IMG/VR virus record: IMGVR_UViG_2595698399_000001
Coordinates: 8,535-72,534 of that record
DNA from: a virus
Taxonomy: Duplodnaviria; Caudoviricetes
Direction: 5' to 3' (one strand)
DNA length: 64,000 nucleotides
Shown: piece by piece, positions 4,677 to 30,298 of the stretch
Layout: the number at the start of each line of letters is the position of its first letter
Position numbering within the stretch: position 1 is the first letter of the stretch
Made by a program: the position numbers and the translations under genes
The notes under the pieces: model-generated
The model's input: the letters and a program-made list of their open reading frames with translations, nothing else
Told to the model about the DNA's origin: nothing
The model's database searches: none

Positions 4677-5417
4677 TTAGAATGGTTTATTGCTCTTTGG
4701 TTTGTCCTCTTTAGCGTCAGTAGCCTTGGCCCTTTTCTTACGCTCAGGCTTAGCCTTTACTTCCTCTTTAGGAGTAGAGTCTTTATCTCCTGCATCCTCA
4801 GAAGGTGCGCCATCTTTAAAGTTTTCTTTGATGAAGTCAACTAAGTGGTCATAGATGAAAGTTTCTTGCTCTGAGTAATCCCACTCTGTAAGACGTCCTT
4901 TTTTCTTTTGGACTGGCTCAGGCATCTCGTCATAAGTAAGGAAGTAATCTACCTTCTCATCATCTTGATACATTTTTACACCGCTTCTAGAGGATTTTCC
5001 GGTCTCTTCTGCAGTCATGTTCCATAGACCAAAGTCCACTTCCTTGGTTAAATCTAAATTACCGATTCTTCTAATGAAATCTTTAGAAGTTCTACTGAAC
5101 ACATCCCCAAGTGAGATAACATATTTGTCATCTACGTCAGTCATGCTAACCTCTACCATATCGCCCCAATCAGCTTCGTTGATAGAAATTCCGGTAATCT
5201 TAGCCTCTAAGTTTCTTAAGATGTAGTAATATACTACCTGACCTTCGTTCTTACCTTTAGTCTTCTTTCTTTCAAGAATATCTTCCGGATTAAGGCCTAA
5301 AGACTCTAACTTTGAGGTTAACTTCGCCTCATCGGTGTTCTCTAATACTAATTCGCTTGCGTAAACTCCTACGTAAGTCGTGTTTGAAGCTCCCGCTCCC
5401 CTTGTGTTAATCGCCAT
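4677..5417 (-). CDS. putative single-stranded DNA-binding protein
   Basis: Charged flexible C-tail ending KPF; replication-gene context. Confidence 0.45.
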   Translation of the reverse strand: MAINTRGAGASNTTYVGVYASELVLENTDEAKLTSKLESLGLNPEDILERKKTKGKNEGQVVYYYILRNLEAKITGISINEADWGDMVEVSMTDVDDKYVISLGDVFSRTSKDFIRRIGNLDLTKEVDFGLWNMTAEETGKSSRSGVKMYQDDEKVDYFLTYDEMPEPVQKKKGRLTEWDYSEQETFIYDHLVDFIKENFKDGAPSEDAGDKDSTPKEEVKAKPERKKRAKATDAKEDKPKSNKPF

Positions 5418-5429
5418 ATTTAATTGAAT

Positions 5430-5942
5430 TTAATTGTTATATGATTTTATTCTGCTTTCGTAATACTCGAAGTCTGAACTTAAAGACTCTTTATTTTCTT
5501 TAAGCAGTCTCCTTTTCTTCTCATACAGTTTTTTAGACCTTTCGTATGATTTAATAAGCTTGTCTGTGTTAGACCCCTGCTTCTGGATCCCCTTTTTCAT
5601 ATTTGAATACGCTAAGGTGGCCTGAACTGTCCAATAATTAATCTCTGTATCAATAGTTATTATTTGCCTGTTTATACTGGTAAGCTTATCTTGGTCATTA
5701 TGAACCATAACCATTAGCAAAGTCTTTACAAAACCTAATCTTAGAATATTCTCTGTAATCTTAGGATCTACTTCGTCGTAGTAGTCGCTAAATCTGACAT
5801 CCTTCCAACCGTACTCCCCATTATGTCTCTTTGATATTTTGAAGCCCTTATAAATATAGGCTAAATGGTCACCAAAATCAAACGGCTTTTTTTGCAGCTC
5901 TGATTCTGCCATTTTGTAAATCCTTTTATAAGTATCTTGCAT
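5430..5942 (-). CDS. hypothetical protein
   Basis: 170 aa ORF downstream of a promoter. Confidence 0.7.
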   Translation of the reverse strand: MQDTYKRIYKMAESELQKKPFDFGDHLAYIYKGFKISKRHNGEYGWKDVRFSDYYDEVDPKITENILRLGFVKTLLMVMVHNDQDKLTSINRQIITIDTEINYWTVQATLAYSNMKKGIQKQGSNTDKLIKSYERSKKLYEKKRRLLKENKESLSSDFEYYESRIKSYNN

Positions 5943-5996: not shown

Positions 5997-6371
5997 TTAC
6001 GGTACTATTCTAGATAGCTCTACAGTCTCATCTTTTAAACCCTTTACTACTTTTACTCTAAGAGCGTCTACCTTATCTAGTAACTCCTTTACTTTAGATT
6101 CTATCCTATTTACGGTAACCTTAACCATTTTATCCGCTATAGCTTCGTTTACTGATAGTAGTATTATATTTCCGTTTTGTATCAACTCTACGACCCTGCC
6201 TCCGACTGTTATACAACAACCTTCGGACTCATTTAGGATTATGTACTTGTTTATACCTTTTTGGAAAATCTTACTACCATTTTTGTTTATTATCCTTAGA
6301 AACTTTTTGTATATCTCAAAGTCTGACTCTGTTTGGCCCGACCTGAAAATCTTTTCTATCTGCTCTTTCAT
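5997..6371 (-). CDS. hypothetical protein
   Basis: 124 aa ORF in operon. Confidence 0.65.
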   Translation of the reverse strand: MKEQIEKIFRSGQTESDFEIYKKFLRIINKNGSKIFQKGINKYIILNESEGCCITVGGRVVELIQNGNIILLSVNEAIADKMVKVTVNRIESKVKELLDKVDALRVKVVKGLKDETVELSRIVP

Positions 6372-6392
6372 ATCCTGTATTTTTGATAGTGT

Positions 6393-7124
6393 TTATCCCC
6401 TTCCTTTAGAATCCGGATAGAGGTCTTTACTTCTATCTGATAACCAAAACTCTCTGGTGTTCATATCCATTATACAAAGTTGTCCGTTCCAACCTGCTCC
6501 GGTGTCCATGTTACATAAATTACCCACCCAAAAAGGTTCTCCTTTGTCATGTGAAGTGTGGCCAATGTATACCTCCTTGAATTGCTTAAGTGGTTTGAAG
6601 CTATCTAACTCCCTTCTATTTCTAAGAGATAGTGCAGATCTGTATAATTCTCTATCCCAATGGCATTCTCTGGATATAGAGCCTGCGTCAACTCTCAGGC
6701 TTGCTTGCCTTTCAAAATCTCCGTGGTGAGTATAATCCCAACCTGCGTGTACAAAGAGCCTATTTTCATCGTCTATATACCAATCTACTTGGTCTTCCCA
6801 AAACTTTACGTGCCTTTCGTCTTGTATTAATTTCTTATCTACGTAAGAGCGTACTGTAGCCTCTCCTCCTTGTTTAAGCCAATTGTTTGGGGCATCTTTA
6901 TACTTAATCCAATCGTGGCACCACACATCGTGATTACCTCTGATAGCCACTAAATTCTTTATACTTAGTAGTATTTCTACACACTCGGGAGTATCATCCC
7001 AACCGTCTGCAACATCTCCTAGCTGTATTAACTTATCTACATCTTTATCAAACCCCGACCTTTCCAAACATTGCTTTAAGGCTCTTGCAGATCCGTGGAT
7101 GTCTCCCATTACAAATACTCTCAT
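6393..7124 (-). CDS. calcineurin-like metallophosphoesterase (Ser/Thr phosphatase family)
   Basis: GDIHG, GDVAD, GNHD, VHAG, GHT, DTGAG motifs. Confidence 0.9.
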   Translation of the reverse strand: MRVFVMGDIHGSARALKQCLERSGFDKDVDKLIQLGDVADGWDDTPECVEILLSIKNLVAIRGNHDVWCHDWIKYKDAPNNWLKQGGEATVRSYVDKKLIQDERHVKFWEDQVDWYIDDENRLFVHAGWDYTHHGDFERQASLRVDAGSISRECHWDRELYRSALSLRNRRELDSFKPLKQFKEVYIGHTSHDKGEPFWVGNLCNMDTGAGWNGQLCIMDMNTREFWLSDRSKDLYPDSKGRG

Positions 7125-18268: not shown

Positions 18269-18630
18269 TAGTGGAGGCGGAGGGAATCGAACCCTCGTCC
18301 AGAGCACTTAATCGTTAATGTTTTATACAGCTTTTGCGTAGTATCGTTACACACGGCATTTCTTTAGACTCTTTATGCTAGAGGGGCCAACCATAGTTAT
18401 GATTGAAGCTCCACCAAACTGTTTTGAGAAAACAGATAAAACGGTCAGCTTATACCCCTACTGCTACTTCAAGGTTAAGGATAGCGTTTACCGCTTCCAT
18501 ATTAGCTTCGATCTGTGCGTTTACCGCATTCGTGTTGTTTCCGTTTAAAGAATTTCACCTTAGTTTGTGCAGTTATCTCTCTGCGCTGAACATTAACGAC
18601 TGTTATACCCTGTCAAAACCAGTCGCCCCC
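18269..18630 (-). ncRNA. ssrA: tmRNA
   Basis: 5' GGGGGCGACTGGTTTTGAC; 3' GACGAGGGTTCGATTCCCTCCGCCTCCA with G3.U70 Ala determinant; about 360 nt; tag ORF after TAAAC at 18542-18450. Confidence 0.9.
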
Positions 18631-20067: not shown

Positions 20068-20142
20068 TAGTACTCTCTATAGGATTCGAACCTATGTTTT
20101 TCGGATGAAAACCGAATGTCCTTACCGCTAGACGAAAAGAGC
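20068..20142 (-). tRNA. tRNA-Glu(TTC), copy 1
   Basis: GCTCTTT acceptor, TTCGG-TTTTCAT-CCGAA anticodon arm, ATAGG-TTCGAAT-CCTAT. Confidence 0.85.
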
Positions 20143-22037: not shown

Positions 22038-22112
22038 TAGTACTCTCTATAGGATTCGAACCTATGTTTTTCGGATGAAAACCGAATGTCCTTACCGCTA
22101 GACGAAAAGAGC
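22038..22112 (-). tRNA. tRNA-Glu(TTC), copy 2 (identical to copy 1)
   Basis: Exact repeat of 20068..20142. Confidence 0.85.
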
Positions 22113-26527: not shown

Positions 26528-26674
26528 ATGATTACATTTTTAGTAGGAGTATTGGCCGGAGCGGCAGGCTTCGCATTAATCTTGAAGAACAACCCTAAAT
26601 TACAAGCATATTTCAATAGTGCTGCAGACGAGTTGGAGCGAAAGATTGAAGAAAAAACCGGAAAAGACATCTAA
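26528..26674 (+). CDS. small membrane-anchored protein (48 aa)
   Basis: MITFLVGVLAGAAGFALILKNNPK...; TATATTTG promoter element upstream. Confidence 0.65.
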   Translation: MITFLVGVLAGAAGFALILKNNPKLQAYFNSAADELERKIEEKTGKDI

Positions 26675-26693: not shown

Positions 26694-26729
26694 TAAGTTT
26701 TTTTATATCAAAAAAAAGTTGTATATTTG
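26694..26729 (+). promoter_or_regulatory. tRNA operon 1 promoter (repeat copy 1 of 3)
   Basis: TAAGTTTTTTTATATCAAAAAAAAGTTGTATATTTG; -7 TATATTTG. Confidence 0.75.
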
Positions 26730-26748
26730 TATCAAAGCAATAAGATCG

Positions 26749-26826
26749 ATGAAAACAATTATGAACATAGCGACAGATATTAGAACCAAGGGAGTGAAAC
26801 TCTTGGGGAGGAGCCGTGTACTATAA
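26749..26826 (+). CDS. putative attenuator leader peptide 1 (MKTIMNIATDIRTKGVKLLGRSRVL)
   Basis: 16 of the first 17 codons specify operon-1 tRNA amino acids; 3' end carries antiterminator strand. Confidence 0.8.
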   Translation: MKTIMNIATDIRTKGVKLLGRSRVL

Positions 26827-26853
26827 TTTCTTTAGATATAAGATGTTTATTAC

Positions 26854-26881
26854 AGCCCTCCCCTAAAAAGGAGGGTTTTTT
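26854..26881 (+). terminator. attenuator terminator 1
   Basis: GCCCTCC-loop-GGAGGGT-TTTTT directly before tRNA-Ala. Confidence 0.8.
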
Positions 26882-26884
26882 ATT

Positions 26885-26962
26885 GGGGCTGCATGAACCA
26901 AGGCAAGGCGACTTTGATTTGCAATCAGAGTGAGATGGGTTCGATACCCATGAGTTCCACAA
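26885..26962 (+). tRNA. tRNA-Ala(TGC)
   Basis: Loop TTTGCAA, G3.U70, ATGGG-TTCGATA-CCCAT. Confidence 0.8.
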
Positions 26963-26987
26963 TAAGATCCCTTACTGACACCAAATT

Positions 26988-27063
26988 GCCCTTGTAGCAA
27001 ACAGGTTGTAGGCAACCGTCTTTTAAACGGTGGGGCTAGGTTCGATTCCTAGCAGGGGCACAT
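26988..27063 (+). tRNA. tRNA-Lys(TTT)
   Basis: ACCGT-CTTTTAA-ACGGT. Confidence 0.85.
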
Positions 27064-27109
27064 AAGTAAATTAGCTTATATAATGGATTATAAGCGAATA
27101 AGGTAATAT

Positions 27110-27185
27110 TGGAGTATAGCTCAGCGGTTAGAGCACTCCCCTGATACGGGAGATGTCGTAGGTTCGAAACCTTCTACTCCAACGA
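27110..27185 (+). tRNA. tRNA-Ile(GAT)
   Basis: CTCCC-CTGATAC-GGGAG. Confidence 0.85.
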
Positions 27186-27270
27186 GGCGGAAGACTACCG
27201 AAAGAAGGAAAAAGGAAAAAAGTTGGACTAAGAGATTGTTTTTACCTCAACTCTATAAAAAGAGGAATTT

Positions 27271-27346
27271 GCGTAAGAGGCCATAGTGGAATGGCGCCTG
27301 CCTTCCAAGTAGGAGATAGCGAGTTCGAACCTCGTCTTACGCTCTT
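27271..27346 (+). tRNA. tRNA-Gly(TCC)
   Basis: CCTGC-CTTCCAA-GTAGG. Confidence 0.85.
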
Positions 27347-27353
27347 TTAAAAT

Positions 27354-27425
27354 TGTGGGTGGTCGTGGTGACCAGAGGGCCTCATAAGTCCTTATAGATG
27401 GGTTCGACTCCCATACCCGCCACAA
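27354..27425 (+). tRNA. tRNA-Met(CAT), short D-arm, unpaired 1:72
   Basis: AGGGC-CTCATAA-GTCCT; ATGGG-TTCGACT-CCCAT. Confidence 0.7.
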
Positions 27426-27497
27426 AAGTCGTTTCTACACTCTTCGGGATAAAGGGTGTTCGTACGACACTCGGCAGTTAATCGACATCTGCCAACT

Positions 27498-27577
27498 GGT
27501 CTAATAAGCGTGTTTGGTAACACGAATTGCACTGTCACTGCTCTAAAACGAGGGTTCGAATCCCTCTTAGACCGCTT
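27498..27577 (+). tRNA. tRNA-Asp(GTC)
   Basis: Loop CTGTCAC; GGTCTAA/TTAGACC-G; anticodon stem partly mismatched. Confidence 0.7.
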
Positions 27578-27584
27578 TAATTAT

Positions 27585-27661
27585 GCACTAATGACTGAAT
27601 AGGAAATGGTACTTCATTTGTAACGAAGATAATTCGGGTTCGACTCCTGATTAGTGCTCAA
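27585..27661 (+). tRNA. tRNA-Thr(TGT)
   Basis: CTTCA-TTTGTAA-CGAAG; GCACTAA/TTAGTGC. Confidence 0.75.
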
Positions 27662-27867
27662 CATACTTAATCCGCCTATCGAGAAGTTTTGAAGCGCATT
27701 AGATTAAGTGTTTTCTGAAAAAGGGGCTTAGCGAATACTAGATATCGTTAACAAAGGCCCCTTTTTATTTATCAGGATAAAAGTATTGTAATGGAGTTTT
27801 GAGTTATGGAAATAAGCTTCTCCACGTTAAAAACAAAAAAGTAGGTGTAGTAATATGCTTACCATAT

Positions 27868-27944
27868 ACCAGATTAGCTCAGCGGTTTAGAGCAGCTCTT
27901 TTACAAGGAGAAGGTCGATAGTTCGAATCTATCATTTGGTACGA
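27868..27944 (+). tRNA. tRNA-Val(TAC)
   Basis: GCTCT-TTTACAA-GGAGA. Confidence 0.8.
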
Positions 27945-28002
27945 CAGTACCTACCACACTTCTAGGAGAACGTCTCAAAGTGTCCAAGGGTAGGTCTTTT
28001 TT

Positions 28003-28076
28003 ACCTCTATAGTTTAAAGGAAGAATACGGCGCTTCTAACGCTATGGTCGGGGTTCGAATCCCTGTAGAGGTTCTT
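28003..28076 (+). tRNA. tRNA-Arg(TCT)
   Basis: CGGCG-CTTCTAA-CGCTA. Confidence 0.8.
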
Positions 28077-28078
28077 AT

Positions 28079-28151
28079 TGGAGTAAGCCTAGGTAGGTTA
28101 GCACGTCTTATATGCGTGTGGAGATGGGTTCGATTCCCTCTATTCCAACTA
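28079..28151 (+). tRNA. tRNA-Ile(TAT), short D-arm
   Basis: CACGT-CTTATAT-GCGTG; acceptor TGGAGTA as in tRNA-Ile(GAT). Confidence 0.7.
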
Positions 28152-28170
28152 TTTATAAAATAAAAAGATA

Positions 28171-28205
28171 TAAGTTTTTTTATATCAAAAAAAGTTGTAT
28201 ATTTA
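28171..28205 (+). promoter_or_regulatory. tRNA operon 2 promoter (repeat copy 2 of 3)
   Basis: TAAGTTTTTTTATATCAAAAAAAGTTGTATATTTA. Confidence 0.75.
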
Positions 28206-28209
28206 CAAT

Positions 28210-28299
28210 ATGAAAACAAACATGACATACAATAATTTCTCTTGGTATTCGAATTGTAGCTTTAGTAGCTATAATGTCGAGAGGTTGTACTTGTCTTAA
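28210..28299 (+). CDS. putative attenuator leader peptide 2 (MKTNMTYNNFSWYSNCSFSSYNVERLYLS)
   Basis: Codons 7-22 use only Y/N/F/S/W/C, the operon-2 amino acids. Confidence 0.8.
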   Translation: MKTNMTYNNFSWYSNCSFSSYNVERLYLS

Positions 28300-28348
28300 A
28301 AATATATTCATTTCTTTTATTAATTTTTGATTATTAATTTTGATTTTT

Positions 28349-28390
28349 ACCCTCTTGGTCTTTCATAGCTAGGAGGGTTTTTTGTTTTTT
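28349..28390 (+). terminator. attenuator terminator 2
   Basis: ACCCTCTTGGT-loop-GCTAGGAGGGT-TTTTTGTTTTTT before tRNA-Tyr. Confidence 0.8.
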
Positions 28391-28396
28391 ATAACT

Positions 28397-28481
28397 TGCA
28401 ACGTAAAGCTAGTGGTTCTAGCAGGCTGTCTGTAAAACAGTTCTTGAGAGGGGAGTGGTTCGATTCCGCACGGTGCAACAA
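28397..28481 (+). tRNA. tRNA-Tyr(GTA)
   Basis: GCTGT-CTGTAAA-ACAGT; long variable arm. Confidence 0.8.
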
Positions 28482-28485
28482 TAAT

Positions 28486-28578
28486 GGAAGAGTAAGCCAA
28501 GTAGGTCTACTGGTCGCTGTCTTGAAAACAGTTGGGGTTTAAAAGCCCGTGTGGGTTCGAGCCCCACTTCTTCCGCAT
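28486..28578 (+). tRNA. tRNA-Ser(TGA)
   Basis: GCTGT-CTTGAAA-ACAGT; long variable arm; G73. Confidence 0.85.
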
Positions 28579-28580
28579 TT

Positions 28581-28668
28581 AGAGAGGTGTCTGAGTGGCT
28601 TAAGGTACTACTTTGCTAAAGTAGTGGGGTTAACGCCTCCGAGGGTTCGAATCCCTTCTTCTCTACAA
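28581..28668 (+). tRNA. tRNA-Ser(GCT)
   Basis: CTACT-TTGCTAA-AGTAG; long variable arm. Confidence 0.85.
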
Positions 28669-28674
28669 ACACAC

Positions 28675-28749
28675 GGCTAGGTAGCTCAGAGGAAGAGCAG
28701 GCGCCTGTTAAGCGTCAGGTCGAGATATCGTAATTCTCCCTAGCCTCTT
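28675..28749 (+). tRNA. tRNA-Asn(GTT)
   Basis: GGCGC-CTGTTAA-GCGTC; atypical T-loop. Confidence 0.8.
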
Positions 28750-28753
28750 TAAT

Positions 28754-28828
28754 ATGTCTCAGCATAAGGTATGCAGTCGGTCTCCAAAACCGTACATGGA
28801 CAAGGTTCGATTCCTTGGGGGCGTGCAA
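28754..28828 (+). tRNA. tRNA-Trp(CCA), short D-arm
   Basis: CGGT-CTCCAAA-ACCG; CAAGG-TTCGATT-CCTTG; G73. Confidence 0.75.
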
Positions 28829-28905
28829 TAAAACAACAGAGCATCCTATAATGTAAAGGAGCCGCCATAAAATCCGAGAGAAGGTCTTGGCTGTTGTTTT
28901 TTAAT

Positions 28906-28981
28906 GCGTTAGAAGCTAACTTGGTAGAAGCACTGGCTTGAAATCCCAGAGGAGTAGGTTCGATTCCTACCTATCGCACTT
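28906..28981 (+). tRNA. tRNA-Phe(GAA)
   Basis: CTGGC-TTGAAAT-CCCAG. Confidence 0.8.
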
Positions 28982-28984
28982 ATA

Positions 28985-29057
28985 TCGGAGATCCTGACGG
29001 AGAAGGGGCCTGTCTGCAAAACTGCGCTATACCGGTTCAATTCCGGTCTCCGATTCT
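28985..29057 (+). tRNA. tRNA-Cys(GCA), divergent anticodon stem
   Basis: Loop CTGCAAA; TCGGAGA/TCTCCGA acceptor with U73. Confidence 0.65.
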
Positions 29058-29106
29058 TATGTTTGTATTTTTCGTACCTTTACTACTTAACGTTAAACAA
29101 ACAACA

Positions 29107-29400
29107 ATGAGAAGAACTACAAGAAAAACTGTGCCAACTAATAAAACTGCGCCTAAGAAAAACGTAACAATCAAATCTGATAAGAGTAGTGTTGCAAGTA
29201 CCAAGGCTAAAAAATACACTGTTAAGACAAGTGGCAAGCTTAAGAAAGAAGAAGAAGCTAGAGGAACTAGGGGTCGTAATGACGCCAATAGATCTGCAGC
29301 CTTTAAGAAAGATGTAGAGAAGGCCGGAGGTATGAGTGCATATACTAAGAAATTAACTGATGCAAAGAAGAGGGTCAAGAAGAATCCAACAAGAATCTAA
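29107..29400 (+). CDS. highly basic small protein
   Basis: MRRTTRKTVPTNK...; K/R-rich; preceded by TACCTTTA -7-like element. Confidence 0.7.
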   Translation: MRRTTRKTVPTNKTAPKKNVTIKSDKSSVASTKAKKYTVKTSGKLKKEEEARGTRGRNDANRSAAFKKDVEKAGGMSAYTKKLTDAKKRVKKNPTRI

Positions 29401-29412
29401 TATAAAACAGTA

Positions 29413-29448
29413 TAAGTTTTTTTATATCAAAAAAAAGTTGTATATTTA
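29413..29448 (+). promoter_or_regulatory. tRNA operon 3 promoter (repeat copy 3 of 3)
   Basis: TAAGTTTTTTTATATCAAAAAAAAGTTGTATATTTA. Confidence 0.75.
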
Positions 29449-29452
29449 CAAT

Positions 29453-29542
29453 ATGAACGTAACGCTATTACATCAAGAGCCCTTAGAACAACTTCGATTA
29501 CCATCGAGGGTGCCTTATTATGGGATTGATGAACTATCATAG
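29453..29542 (+). CDS. putative attenuator leader peptide 3 (MNVTLLHQEPLEQLRLPSRVPYYGIDELS)
   Basis: Codons 5-17 use only L/H/Q/E/P/R(CGA), the operon-3 amino acids. Confidence 0.8.
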   Translation: MNVTLLHQEPLEQLRLPSRVPYYGIDELS

Positions 29543-29565
29543 TTTACAACGCACAATATCCTATT

Positions 29566-29602
29566 AAGAGCCCCTTTGGTATAAACCATTGGGGCTTTTT
29601 TT
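29566..29602 (+). terminator. attenuator terminator 3
   Basis: AAGAGCCCC-TTTGGTATAAACCATT-GGGGCTTTTTTT before tRNA-Pro. Confidence 0.8.
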
Positions 29603-29606
29603 ATTT

Positions 29607-29681
29607 CGAGTAGTGACAAAATTGGCACGTGCCGACCTTGGACGTCGGAGAATGCAGGTTCGATCCCTGCCTACTCGACTT
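29607..29681 (+). tRNA. tRNA-Pro(TGG)
   Basis: CCGAC-CTTGGAC-GTCGG. Confidence 0.85.
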
Positions 29682-29687
29682 TGATTT

Positions 29688-29765
29688 GCTATCGTCTTCT
29701 AAATGGAATAGGAATCCACCCTTTCAAGGTGTGCAATGCGAGTTCAAGTCTCGTCGATAGTACGA
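29688..29765 (+). tRNA. tRNA-Glu(TTC)
   Basis: CACC-CTTTCAA-GGTG. Confidence 0.8.
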
Positions 29766-29808
29766 AGGTTGTTTGCTAGTATCTCCCAACAAAGTAGAAA
29801 CTAGACAT

Positions 29809-29883
29809 TGGAGTATGATGTAACGGTTAGCATGACTGGTTTTGAGCCAGTTCGTCGGGGTTCGAATCCCTGTACTCCATCTT
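29809..29883 (+). tRNA. tRNA-Gln(TTG)
   Basis: ACTGG-TTTTGAG-CCAGT. Confidence 0.85.
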
Positions 29884-29891
29884 ATAAGAGT

Positions 29892-29968
29892 CCTCCGTTG
29901 CGCCAAATTGGAAAGGCGGTCAAGCTGTGAACTTGATTACATGGGTTCGATTCCCATACGGTTGTCCA
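29892..29968 (+). tRNA. tRNA-His(GTG), mismatched acceptor stem
   Basis: TCAAG-CTGTGAA-CTTGA; good D and T arms; acceptor CCTCCGT/ACGGTTG has two mismatches. Confidence 0.65.
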
Positions 29969-30004
29969 ACACGGGGTAGTGTCATAATGTCATACCCCTT
30001 TTAT

Positions 30005-30090
30005 GCCGGAGTGAGTAAAAAAGAGAATGGCAGATCATTGGGTCTTAGAAACCCAGACTTTTGGGGGTTCGAATCCCTCCTCCGGTACTT
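30005..30090 (+). tRNA. tRNA-Leu(TAG)
   Basis: TGGGT-CTTAGAA-ACCCA. Confidence 0.75.
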
Positions 30091-30096
30091 ATTAAT

Positions 30097-30182
30097 GCAT
30101 CCATGGTGGAAAGGGCTATACACTACAGGCTTAAAACCTGTCGCCGAAAGGATTGGGGGTTCGAATCCCTCTGGATGCACTT
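30097..30182 (+). tRNA. tRNA-Leu(TAA)
   Basis: ACAGG-CTTAAAA-CCTGT; long variable arm. Confidence 0.85.
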
Positions 30183-30186
30183 TCAC

Positions 30187-30261
30187 ACTTCTATAGCTTA
30201 ACGGAAAAGCGTTCCGCTACGAACGGATAGATTGGGGGTTCGAATCCCTCTAGAAGTTCTT
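30187..30261 (+). tRNA. tRNA-Arg(ACG)
   Basis: TCCG-CTACGAA-CGGA. Confidence 0.85.
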
Positions 30262-30265
30262 AAAC

Positions 30266-30298
30266 AAAAAAAGCCATCTAATTAAAGGTGGCTTTCTT
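30266..30298. terminator. terminator closing the tRNA array (possibly bidirectional)
   Basis: AAAAAAAGCCATCT-AATTAA-AGGTGGCTTTCTT. Confidence 0.7.

What the first reader, a model, noticed from the sequence alone, without database searches (positions are those of the whole stretch)
29453..29602. Attenuator 3: 13 consecutive L/H/Q/E/P/R codons upstream of the Pro-Glu-Gln-His-Leu-Leu-Arg block
Codons 5-17 (CTA TTA CAT CAA GAG CCC TTA GAA CAA CTT CGA TTA CCA) match all seven tRNAs. AGGGTGCCTTATTATGGGATTG (29507-29528) is imperfectly complementary to CAATATCCTATTAAGAGCCCCT (29554-29575), which overlaps the terminator's 5' arm. The three leaders share no obvious sequence similarity beyond their starts, so the architecture is conserved rather than copied. 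Caveat: the stop lies 12 nt past the antiterminator strand, so timing would matter.
Basis: seen in the sequence. Interest (0 to 1): 0.85.

Follow-up and report, generated by a model that had tools for sequence, protein, structure and literature searches.

The report
Codon-matched leader peptides gate phage tRNAs
A marine Flavobacteria phage puts each block of its tRNA genes behind a tiny test gene made of exactly the codons those tRNAs read, so that it probably makes more tRNA only when ribosomes stall for lack of them.

Summary
At 29453-29542 a 29-codon ORF follows a 35-nt promoter-like box. Codons 5-17 are all L/H/Q/E/P/R. They include a cognate codon for each of the seven downstream tRNAs (Pro, Glu, Gln, His, Leu-TAG, Leu-TAA, Arg-ACG). 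An intrinsic terminator (29566-29599 plus T7) ends 5 nt before tRNA-Pro. An alternative helix (29500-29528 with 29558-29580, -25 kcal/mol) sequesters the terminator's 5' arm.

Two sister units in the window do the same for the other two tRNA blocks. Together, 44 of 45 sensor codons match and all 24 tRNAs have a cognate sensor codon.

The design recurs in Maribacter phage Panino, Cellulophaga phage phi4:1 and several IMG/VR contigs, and leader composition tracks tRNA content. Blocks without Glu and Leu-UUR tRNAs have sensors without those codons. A block that gained Tyr and Ser has Y and S codons. In one contig the Asn tRNA and the Asn codons have moved together. Antiterminator and terminator sequences co-vary.

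Best reading (about 0.8): ribosome-mediated transcription attenuation that feeds back on decoding capacity. Nine literature searches found no prior description. Function is not shown experimentally, and the discrimination depends on kinetics.

The parts
29413..29447 (+). 35-nt promoter-like box TAAGTTTTTTTATATCAAAAAAAAGTTGTATATTT. GTTG lies at 29437-29440 and TATATTTA at 29441-29448, ending 4 nt before the ATG.
   Evidence: Repeat family D5 has 3 copies, one before each leader. The core AAAGTTGTATATTTRYA occurs only 3 times in 64 kb, and 0 of 100 shuffles reach 3. The same core precedes ordinary genes in L006 and L009. The likeness to the Bacteroidota -7 motif TAnnTTTG is recalled, not tested.
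29453..29542 (+). Leader ORF 3: 29 codons plus TAG, MNVTLLHQEPLEQLRLPSRVPYYGIDELS.
   Evidence: Homologous ORFs occur in 8 further lineages.
29465..29503 (+). Sensor run: 13 codons (L L H Q E P L E Q L R L P) cognate to the 7 tRNAs downstream.
   Evidence: There are zero substitutions here against Calle_1, while 7 substitutions fall elsewhere in the 150-nt unit.
29480..29498 (+). Region 1. In the untranslated leader it pairs with 29503-29524 (including CUUCGAU with AUCGAGG), which holds region 2 away from region 3.
   Evidence: MFE of the full leader is -40.1 kcal/mol.
29500..29528 (+). Region 2: the 5' strand of the antiterminator, lying inside ORF codons 16-26.
   Evidence: Fold of 29492-29580 gives -25.0 kcal/mol. 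The duplex search gives -16.2, z -2.8 against shuffles.
29558..29580 (+). Region 3: the 3' strand of the antiterminator, which is also the 5' arm of the terminator plus its 5' flank.
29566..29602 (+). Intrinsic terminator: hairpin 29566-29599 (AAGAGCCCC-TT-TGGT / ACCA-TT-GGGGCTTTT) with T-run 29596-29602. It ends 5 nt before tRNA-Pro.
   Evidence: -20.6 kcal/mol. Both stems are identical in Calle_1.
29607..30259 (+). Regulated tRNA block 3: Pro-TGG, Glu-TTC, Gln-TTG, His-GTG, Leu-TAG (anomalous call, about 30005-30088), Leu-TAA, Arg-ACG.
30270..30295 (+). Terminator-like hairpin that closes transcription unit 3.
26694..26881 (+). Sister unit 1: box 26694-26728; ORF 26749-26826 (MKTIMNIATDIRTKGVKLLGRSRVL); terminator 26854-26877 plus T-run. 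It precedes Ala, Lys, Ile, Gly, Met, Asp, Thr, Val, Arg-TCT and Ile-TAT (26884-28149).
28171..28383 (+). Sister unit 2: box 28171-28205; ORF 28210-28299 (MKTNMTYNNFSWYSNCSFSSYNVERLYLS); terminator 28349-28378 plus T-run. It precedes Tyr, Ser, Ser, Asn, Trp, Phe and Cys (28397-29056).

Best explanation
This is a ribosome-mediated (leader-peptide) transcription attenuator placed in front of a phage tRNA operon.

How it would work. Transcription starts at the conserved box, probably at or within a few nt of the AUG. A ribosome translates the 29-codon leader. If all seven cognate aminoacyl-tRNAs are plentiful, the ribosome runs through codons 5-17, unwinds region 2 (29500-29528) and reaches the stop at 29540. 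The terminator (29566-29599 plus U7) then forms and the polymerase stops 5 nt before tRNA-Pro. If any one of the cognate tRNAs is scarce or uncharged, the ribosome stalls in the sensor run. The stall melts region 1 and leaves region 2 free to pair with region 3 as it emerges. The terminator cannot form, and the polymerase reads into the seven tRNA genes.

Because the products are the very tRNAs that read the sensor, the loop is a negative-feedback homeostat on decoding capacity. Two sister units do the same for the other 17 tRNAs, so all 20 amino acids are covered in three independently sensed blocks.

Shown here: the anatomy, its significance against chance, its conservation and its covariation. 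Inferred: that the ORF is translated, that termination is regulated, and which physiological signal is read.
For: 1. Match in the window. 13 of 13, 16 of 16 and 15 of 16 sensor codons fall in the residue set of their own block. 0 of 1,000,000 random partitions of the 20 amino acids reach 44 of 45; the best random score was 41. Each leader matches its own block and not the others. All 24 tRNAs have a cognate sensor codon. The script printed CAT as missing for unit 1, but that is a dictionary artefact: ATG is codon 5. The match holds at isoacceptor level. AGA appears in leader 1 with Arg-TCT, CGA in leader 3 with Arg-ACG, ATA and ATT with Ile-TAT and Ile-GAT, and both TCN and AGY with the two Ser tRNAs.

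2. Conservation in unrelated phages. Panino has MKTQRLHQELEQP... before P E Q H L L R, and MRAATGIAIIGRTKDK... before A K I G .... The 146-kb phage phi4:1 has all three leader types. IMG/VR contigs carry them too.

3. Covariation of sensor with tRNA content.
- 4 lineages whose block has Glu and Leu-TAA tRNAs have E and TTA codons in the sensor.
- The groups L008/L010/L012/L015 and L018/L023 have the block P Q H R L-TAG and the sensor CTA CGT CAC CCG CAA CAA, with no E and no UUR codon.
- L016/L020 have the block P Y Q H R S S and a sensor that contains Y and S.
- In L092 the Asn tRNA has moved from the Tyr/Trp/Phe/Ser/Cys block to the Pro/Gln block. N codons are absent from the first leader (LYSYSCFSSWF) and present in the second (NNLHIQQNNLP).

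4. Geometry. All 17 units have an open ORF and a hairpin followed by a T-run. The stop codon lies 23-31 nt before the hairpin in 14 of 17.

5. Antiterminator. In 12 of 17 units, at most 5% of 300 shuffles reach the observed pairing between a strand inside the ORF's 3' part and the terminator's 5' arm. Its energy is similar to the terminator's. A unit's own leader ranks 1st or 2nd of 17 for all 9 L3-type terminators, and 0 of 20,000 permutations reach the diagonal sum. In 9 of 9 L3-type units the transcript cut before the 3' arm folds into the antiterminator, at -15 to -32 kcal/mol. The paired sequences differ completely between lineages: GAGGG/CCCCT, GGGAGGG/CCCTTCC, GGGTGG/CCATCC, CTGAGGCT/AGCCTTAG.

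6. In the window, stalls at sensor codons 5-13 leave 12-13 of the 14 nt of the terminator 5' arm in the antiterminator. The untranslated leader instead folds into region 1:2 plus the terminator.

7. The box occurs only before the three leaders in the window.

8. Controls. 16 tRNA blocks in T5, Klebsiella phage Roth19, PA5oct and Bacillus phage Thrax1 have upstream runs of at most 6 codons.
Against: - No experiment shows translation of the ORF or regulated read-through.
- In equilibrium folds of units 2 and 3 the terminator stays in the MFE in every ribosome state, so the switch must be kinetic.
- In the window's unit 3, region 2 ends 21 nt before the stop codon. A ribosome at the stop covers only its 3' end, and a thermodynamic fold still allows region 2 to pair with region 3 around it.
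- Stalls at the last four sensor codons leave only 9, 7, 4 and 2 of 14 nt in the antiterminator. These four include the single Arg codon.
- Imperfect matches exist. AAC (Asn) sits in leader 1. L021/L083 have an Arg tRNA but no Arg codon. L016/L020 have five Leu codons but no Leu tRNA was found in the block. L092 has a His codon but no His tRNA. L008-type leaders carry N codons in their N-terminal part without an Asn tRNA. L007 keeps a full L2-type leader in front of only tRNA-Phe plus a tRNA fragment.
- L017/L019/L022 keep the box, a hairpin with a T-run and the same tRNA block, but have no leader ORF.
- The antiterminator is weak or not significant in phi4-L1, L003-L2 and L007-L2.
- Many units are related by descent, so the counts are not independent events.
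- Whether transcription and translation are coupled closely enough in Flavobacteriia is not known to me.
Confidence: 0.8

Rival explanations
1. Same attenuator, different signal. It reads amino-acid starvation (uncharged tRNA), as in the classical operons, rather than tRNA abundance. Induction of tRNA genes would then be a by-product, or would serve another purpose.
For: The mechanism cannot tell a missing tRNA from an uncharged one. All sequence evidence fits both.
Against: More tRNA does not relieve amino-acid starvation, so this gives no selective logic for matching each sensor to its own tRNA block. It also does not explain why the match follows tRNA gains, losses and moves or holds at isoacceptor level (AGA against CGA, ATA against ATT).
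Confidence: 0.15
2. The hairpin and T-run are only an insulator, an upstream-gene terminator or a pre-tRNA processing signal. The codon-matched ORF acts through translation on something other than termination, for example stability or processing of the precursor.
For: L017/L019/L022 keep the hairpin and T-run before the same tRNA block without any leader ORF. RNA contigs bridge terminators 1 and 2, so these terminators are at least leaky, if the contigs come from RNA.
Against: The terminator lies downstream of a dedicated promoter box, so it cannot be merely the end of the upstream gene. The strand inside the ORF that pairs with the terminator's 5' arm co-varies with it across lineages, which only an alternative-structure switch explains. 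The stop-to-hairpin spacing is conserved.
Confidence: 0.07
3. Direct tRNA sensing without translation (T-box-like). The codon run would pair with tRNA anticodons on the naked RNA.
For: The run consists of codons complementary to the anticodons of the block.
Against: There is no Rfam T-box match or any other riboswitch match. All 17 units keep a start codon right after the promoter, an open frame of 22-32 codons and a stop at a fixed distance from the hairpin. From base composition an open frame of 29 codons has roughly a 0.14 chance each (my estimate). No specifier-loop architecture is present, and 13-16 adjacent specifiers have no precedent.
Confidence: 0.02
4. The small ORFs encode functional peptides, or the match is chance.
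For: L2-type peptides are Cys-, Ser- and aromatic-rich, and look superficially like small secreted or modified peptides.
Against: Composition is conserved, not sequence. The chance levels are 3.6e-8 and 1e-10 for the runs, and 0 of 1e6 partitions reach the observed match. Composition changes with tRNA content.
Confidence: 0.01

Closest known systems
Leader-peptide attenuators of enterobacterial amino-acid operons (trpL, hisL, leuL, pheL; the multi-amino-acid thrL with Thr+Ile and ilvL with Ile/Val/Leu). Textbook knowledge, recalled.
   Same: A short ORF with regulatory codons, four RNA regions forming 1:2, 2:3 and 3:4 alternatives, an intrinsic terminator just before the regulated genes, and a terminator that is more stable than the antiterminator, so the choice is kinetic. 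An untranslated leader terminates.
   Different: The regulated genes are tRNAs, not enzymes. The sensor is a mixed run of 6-9 different amino acids that mirrors a whole tRNA block at isoacceptor level. The element is in a phage of Flavobacteriia. The ATG lies 4-5 nt after the promoter motif, so the mRNA is probably leaderless (inference). No Rfam leader family matches the window. The only hit is sub-threshold: Phe_leader at 27.9 bits against a gathering score of 55, on the L2-type leader of L092.
pheST attenuator (pheM leader) of E. coli. Recalled.
   Same: Attenuation by regulatory codons controls a component of the translation apparatus that serves the same tRNA.
   Different: The product there is a synthetase, it senses one amino acid, and it is chromosomal.
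T-box riboswitches
   Same: They sense the state of a specific tRNA and choose between a terminator and an antiterminator.
   Different: T-boxes bind tRNA directly, need no ribosome, carry one specifier codon and control synthetase or amino-acid genes in Firmicutes. No T-box match was found here.
Phage tRNA gene clusters as described so far (T4, T5, Calle, Panino)
   Same: Clusters of tRNA genes with small ORFs and hairpins between them.
   Different: The Calle and Panino papers only count the tRNAs (passages read). T5's small ORFs in its tRNA region are not codon-matched leaders. None of 9 literature searches returned a description of leader-peptide control of tRNA genes.

Membership tests
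Ribosome-mediated (leader-peptide) transcription attenuator | A short ORF between the promoter and the regulated genes | tested here: met
   ORF 29453-29542, 4 nt after the box. ORFs of 22-32 codons occur in all 17 units.
Ribosome-mediated (leader-peptide) transcription attenuator | Regulatory codons cognate to what the operon supplies | tested here: met
   13 of 13 codons match and 7 of 7 tRNAs are served. Sensor composition co-varies with tRNA content in relatives.
Ribosome-mediated (leader-peptide) transcription attenuator | An intrinsic terminator between the ORF and the first regulated gene | tested here: met
   Hairpin 29566-29599, -20.6 kcal/mol, followed by T7. It is not listed by the simple scanner, which did list those of units 1 and 2.
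Ribosome-mediated (leader-peptide) transcription attenuator | An alternative antiterminator that uses the terminator's 5' arm, with its other strand placed where a translating ribosome covers it and a stalled ribosome does not | tested here: met
   29500-29528 pairs with 29558-29580 at -25.0 kcal/mol. It forms for stalls at codons 5-13. It is present in 9 of 9 L3-type units and is specific to the unit's own terminator. Caveat: the ribosome at the stop covers only part of region 2.
Ribosome-mediated (leader-peptide) transcription attenuator | Read-through rises when the cognate charged tRNA is limiting | not testable with these tools
   Only contig-level RNA data were available. They cannot show 3' ends or expression levels.
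Rfam leader families (His, Leu, Thr, Trp, Phe leaders) | A match to the covariance model at the gathering score | tested here: not met
   No leader family appears in the window at the gathering score or at E<=1. In L092, Phe_leader scores 27.9 bits and Thr_leader 23.1 bits, both below the gathering score of 55.
T-box riboswitch | Stem I with a specifier loop plus the conserved T-box sequence (Rfam model) | tested here: not met
   No match.

The most novel reading that the evidence does not exclude
The three leaders are tRNA-supply sensors. The phage carries a complete 20-amino-acid tRNA set split into three operons, and it switches on exactly the operon whose decoding capacity has collapsed. 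The collapse could come from host anticodon nucleases, from phage-induced decay of host tRNA, or from late-infection demand. The operon shuts off again once its own tRNAs restore translation of the leader. This would be the first case of tRNA genes under ribosome-mediated attenuation, and the first combinatorial leader peptide that mirrors a whole tRNA block. The module is shared by horizontal transfer among unrelated Flavobacteriia phages.
Probability: 0.5. Interest if true: 0.92.

Novelty: new variant of a known kind. Interest (0 to 1): 0.88.

Why it matters
Why phages carry tRNAs, and how they control them, is a long-standing question. This architecture suggests that at least one group of marine phages does not express its tRNAs constitutively. 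Instead it measures, codon by codon, whether the cell can still decode, and tops up only what is missing.

It extends leader-peptide attenuation from amino-acid biosynthesis to the tRNA pool itself, to a phage, and to Bacteroidota. It shows that a leader can integrate up to nine amino acids at isoacceptor resolution.

It gives a directly testable link between phage tRNAs and tRNA-targeting host defences. It also supplies compact, natural, codon-specific sensors of translation capacity that could serve as reporters.

Finally, it offers a simple rule for annotating such ORFs in phage tRNA clusters, where they are now either missed or called 'hypothetical protein'. An example is PANI_CDS0063 in Panino.

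Tried and rejected

- Column-wise covariation counting on the MAFFT alignment A1 was abandoned. The helices fall in shifted columns in different lineages, and in L020 the region 2 strand is not positionally homologous. I used per-sequence folds and a cross-pairing matrix instead.

- The first tRNA-Pro pattern, with fixed spacing, found nothing in IMG/VR. A version with a variable gap found 13 loci.

- Bacterial genomes. The tRNA-Pro pattern found 0 matches. So no chromosomal or prophage counterpart was found, but this is no proof of absence.

- In the TTGCAGTATGAAAACA scan, several hits (MKTMKFHYQ and the like) lie inside a ribonucleotide-reductase-like gene. They are chance matches.

- RNA runs (contigs only). 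In 2 of 4 runs (X2, X4) a separate contig covers 29428-29526 or 29428-29531 at word depth of about 2400, against about 280 for the tRNA block. In the other two (X1, X5) there is no such excess. None of the listed pieces bridges 29532-29593, while listed pieces do bridge terminators 1 and 2; 48 pieces were not shown. By the tool's own warning, contig depth cannot rank parts of a gene and gaps prove nothing. Contig ends near 29412-29437 coincide with the repeated box. I therefore draw no conclusion beyond noting that the region is present in RNA libraries.

- T5, which I vaguely recalled as having small ORFs in its tRNA region, shows no codon-matched leaders.

- The sigma-70 promoter scan is uninformative for a Bacteroidota-type promoter.

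- Supplementary files were not open. SI file 7 of PMC8776804 (annotation of Calle) and Supplementary Dataset S1 of PMC5335546 (phi38:1 RNA-seq) might hold expression or annotation data for this region. I could not see them.
Full report
WHAT IS THERE

The window is about 95% identical over the aligned part to Cellulophaga phage Calle_1 (Pervagoviridae, Callevirus). Between 26.7 and 30.3 kb on the + strand it holds a tRNA cluster.

ARAGORN at default settings finds 18 tRNAs there. Relaxed settings add Ile-TAT, Tyr-GTA, Trp-CCA and Cys-GCA. Two more candidates get only anomalous calls: Ala-TGC at about 26884-26962 and Leu-TAG at about 30005-30088. Both align with cleanly called syntenic tRNAs of relatives, with the anticodon loops conserved.

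The 24 genes fall into three blocks:
- Block 1: A K I G M D T V R(TCT) I(TAT).
- Block 2: Y S S N W F C.
- Block 3: P E Q H L(TAG) L(TAA) R(ACG).

Together they cover all 20 amino acids.

Each block is preceded by the same arrangement: a 35-nt box (repeat D5, three copies), a small ORF, and a G+C-rich hairpin followed by a T-run that ends a few nt before the first tRNA. The core of the box, AAAGTTGTATATTTRYA, occurs only at these three places in the 64 kb, and 0 of 100 shuffles reach three matches.

THE OBSERVATION

- All 13 codons fall in the set {L,H,Q,E,P,R}, and all six residues are used.
- 11 of 13 codons are cognate under strict wobble. All 13 are cognate if U34 reads whole family boxes. 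Each of the 7 tRNAs has at least one cognate codon.
- The set makes up 0.268 of residues in the window's long ORFs, so p = 3.6e-8 for 13 given codons.
- The run is the longest for this set in all six frames of the window. The 16-codon run of leader 2 is likewise the longest for its set.

Across the three leaders, 44 of 45 sensor codons match their own block, the exception being one AAC in leader 1. None of 1,000,000 random partitions of the amino acids reaches that score; the best reached 41. Cross-assignment fails: leader 3 against blocks 1 and 2 gives runs of 3 and 2.

The match holds at isoacceptor level. Leader 1 uses AGA, and Arg-TCT is in block 1. Leader 3 uses CGA, and Arg-ACG is in block 3. 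Leader 1 uses both ATT and ATA. Leader 2 uses both TCN and AGY.

RNA STRUCTURE

The terminator is 29566-29599 (-20.6 kcal/mol), followed by T7.

They are part of a longer antiterminator, 29500-29528 with 29558-29580. This helix takes in 13 of the 14 nt of the core of the terminator's 5' arm (29567-29580), and its apical hairpin holds the stop codon. The transcript cut at 29580 folds into it at -25.0 kcal/mol.

Without a ribosome, the full leader folds at -40.1 kcal/mol into a region 1:2 helix (29480-29498 with 29503-29524) plus the terminator. An untranslated leader should therefore terminate.

I modelled a stalled ribosome as masking everything up to 12 nt beyond the first nt of the A-site codon. 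Stalls at codons 5-13 then leave the antiterminator intact (12-13 of 14 nt). Stalls at the last four codons erode it progressively, to 9, 7, 4 and 2 nt.

This is the classical four-region layout. As in the classical cases (recalled), the terminator is the more stable structure, so the decision must be kinetic. Equilibrium folds of units 2 and 3 keep the terminator in every ribosome state.

With the ribosome at the stop, only the 3' end of region 2 is covered, and a fold that ignores sterics still lets region 2 pair with region 3. My inference is that a ribosome sitting in the apical loop hinders that long-range helix sterically, while the local terminator hairpin forms. This inference is not tested.

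RELATIVES

The same module exists in:
- Maribacter phage Panino, with two units.
- The 146-kb Cellulophaga phage phi4:1, of a different genus, with all three types.
- IMG/VR contigs found with three motif scans.

I assembled 17 units. All have an open ORF of 22-32 codons and a hairpin with a T-run. In 14 of 17 the stop lies 23-31 nt before the hairpin.

Antiterminator evidence across the units:
- A strand in the 3' part of the ORF (starting at codons 15-23) pairs with the terminator's 5' arm at an energy close to the terminator's own. In 12 of 17 units, at most 5% of 300 mononucleotide shuffles reach that energy. Three units (phi4-L1, L003-L2, L007-L2) are not better than shuffles.
- Pairing every leader with every terminator, a unit's own leader ranks first or second of 17 for all nine L3-type units. 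The second places are due to near-identical twins. No permutation of 20,000 reaches the diagonal sum.
- All nine L3-type transcripts cut before the 3' arm fold into the antiterminator.
- The paired sequences differ between lineages, so the pairing, not the sequence, is conserved.

Against Calle_1, the 150-nt unit has 7 substitutions. None lies in the 39-nt sensor or in the terminator stems. One of them turns a G-C pair of the antiterminator into G-U.

SENSOR FOLLOWS tRNA CONTENT

- Four lineages (window/Calle, Panino, phi4:1, L005) have the block P E Q H L L R. Their sensors hold E and TTA codons.
- Two groups (L008/L010/L012/L015 and L018/L023) have the block P Q H R L-TAG. Their sensor is CTA CGT CAC CCG CAA CAA: one codon or more per tRNA, no E and no UUR.
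- L016/L020 have the block P Y Q H R S, plus a probable Ser-GCT that I read by eye. Their sensor is RLSLHSYRPLQQLSLL, with Y and S of both codon families.
- In L092 the Tyr?/Trp/Phe/Ser/Cys?/Ser block has no Asn tRNA, and its leader LYSYSCFSSWF has no N; every other L2-type leader has N. The Asn tRNA sits in the next block (Pro, Gln, a CAT tRNA, Asn, Leu-TAG), whose leader reads NNLHIQQNNLP. The Tyr and Cys identities there are my reading of the anticodon loops in Rfam tRNA hits.

EXCEPTIONS, TOLD IN FULL

- L021/L083 have an Arg tRNA but no Arg codon.
- L016/L020 have five Leu codons but no Leu tRNA was found in the block.
- L092 has a His codon but no His tRNA.
- L008- and L021-type leaders carry N codons in the N-terminal filler without an Asn tRNA.
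- L043 matches only in part.
- L007 has a complete L2-type leader before only tRNA-Phe and a tRNA fragment.
- L017/L019/L022 keep the box, a hairpin with a T-run and the P Q H R L block, but no leader ORF.
- Many units share ancestry, so the counts are not independent events.

CONTROLS AND RANGE

- The same promoter core precedes ordinary genes in L006 and L009.
- Sixteen tRNA blocks of T5, Klebsiella phage Roth19, Pseudomonas phage PA5oct and Bacillus phage Thrax1 have upstream matching runs of at most 6 codons.
- No counterpart turned up in bacterial genomes with two motif scans.
- The two extra tRNA-Glu genes of the window, on the minus strand, have no leaders.

EXPRESSION DATA

Five RNA-seq runs hold most of the region, but only as contigs. 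Pieces bridge terminators 1 and 2. For unit 3, two of four runs have a separate, deeper contig over the leader, and no listed piece crosses 29532-29593. By the tool's own rules this is not evidence of termination, so I do not count it.

COMPARISON WITH WHAT IS KNOWN

In mechanism this is a leader-peptide attenuator. All features that can be tested in silico are met. It is not a member of any Rfam leader family; the only hits are sub-threshold Phe_leader and Thr_leader matches on an L2-type relative. It is not a T-box.

It differs from known attenuators in four ways:
- The regulated genes are tRNAs.
- The sensor is a mixed run that mirrors a whole tRNA block.
- The element sits in phages of Flavobacteriia.
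- The mRNA is probably leaderless. This last point is an inference from the 4-5 nt between the TAnnTTT(G/A) motif and the ATG, and from a recalled promoter consensus.

Nine full-text searches returned nothing on leader-peptide or attenuation control of tRNA genes. In the Calle, Panino and phi38:1 papers I read only the passages around 'tRNA' and 'attenuat'. They give tRNA counts, or discuss host tRNA expression, and nothing on this element. Subscription journals and supplements were not searchable, so an older description cannot be excluded.

VERDICT

The finding is real, highly non-random, conserved and co-varying. The best explanation is ribosome-mediated attenuation that makes expression of each tRNA block depend on how well its own codons are being decoded (confidence about 0.8).

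Which signal it reads in nature is inferred, not shown. It could be tRNA loss through host defence or host shut-off, translational demand, or amino-acid starvation.

I rate it a new variant of a known kind of regulation, of high interest.

Noticed in passing
window 18271-18630 (-): Phage-encoded tmRNA (ARAGORN tag peptide AQIEANMEAVNAILNLEVAVGV; Rfam 87.6 bits). It sits next to a complete tRNA set, so the phage carries its own ribosome-rescue RNA as well.
   Followed up: no
window 20070-20142 and 22040-22112 (-): Two identical extra tRNA-Glu(TTC) genes outside the three attenuator-controlled blocks. Each lies directly after a protein-coding gene, without a leader ORF.
   Followed up: partly
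window 26884-30259: The three tRNA blocks are sorted roughly by the first letter of the codon. Block 3 reads C-starting codons (Pro, Gln, His, Leu-CUN, Arg-CGN) plus Glu and Leu-UUR. Block 2 reads U-starting codons (Tyr, Ser-UCN, Trp, Phe, Cys) plus Asn and Ser-AGY. Block 1 reads A- and G-starting codons. The same grouping holds in Panino and phi4:1.
   Followed up: no
window 27723-27766: A terminator-like hairpin (GGGGCTT ... AAGGCCCC followed by T5, with a long loop) lies inside block 1, between tRNA-Thr and tRNA-Val. No matching leader ORF was seen.
   Followed up: no
L017 7180-7285 (also L019, L022): A natural variant. It has the same promoter core and the same Pro-Gln-His-Arg-Leu block, but the leader ORF is replaced by about 60 nt holding the palindrome TTTCCCTAGGGAAA and a different hairpin with T6. 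An 8-codon ORF (GTG start, MKTYATAP) overlaps that hairpin's 5' arm.
   Followed up: partly
L092 7730-8236: An HNH-endonuclease-like gene is inserted between the attenuator's terminator and its tRNA block. The CAT-anticodon tRNA in that block resembles tRNA-Ile, and the leader holds an ATA codon, so it may be a lysidine-type Ile tRNA.
   Followed up: no
L007 (- strand orientation) 6073-6560: An L2-type leader is followed by only tRNA-Phe and the 3' half of a tRNA, then by genes on the other strand. This looks like a truncated block, possibly a recombination scar.
   Followed up: partly
L024 (phage T5) 10618-10893 (-): T5.072, a 91-aa ORF upstream of tRNA-Tyr, Glu, Trp and Phe, contains the stretch WEGWEGEIEWLYFY, which is rich in exactly those residues. 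An annotated promoter lies between the ORF and the tRNAs. This may be coincidence.
   Followed up: no
window 30005-30088 and 26884-26962: The Leu-TAG and Ala-TGC candidates have unusual D-arm regions, with extra nt compared to relatives. That is why the standard tRNA finders miss them. The Ala candidate keeps G3-U70.
   Followed up: partly
window 26694-26728, 28171-28205, 29413-29447: The repeated box contains T7-ATATC-A8, a potential A-U hairpin or protein-binding site, upstream of the promoter core. The IMG/VR relatives lack this part.
   Followed up: no
L002 (Panino) 5269-5500: In Panino the L1-type leader has no promoter box of its own. It follows directly a 49-aa membrane-protein gene, which is homologous to window 26528-26674, so it is probably co-transcribed with that gene.
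   Followed up: no
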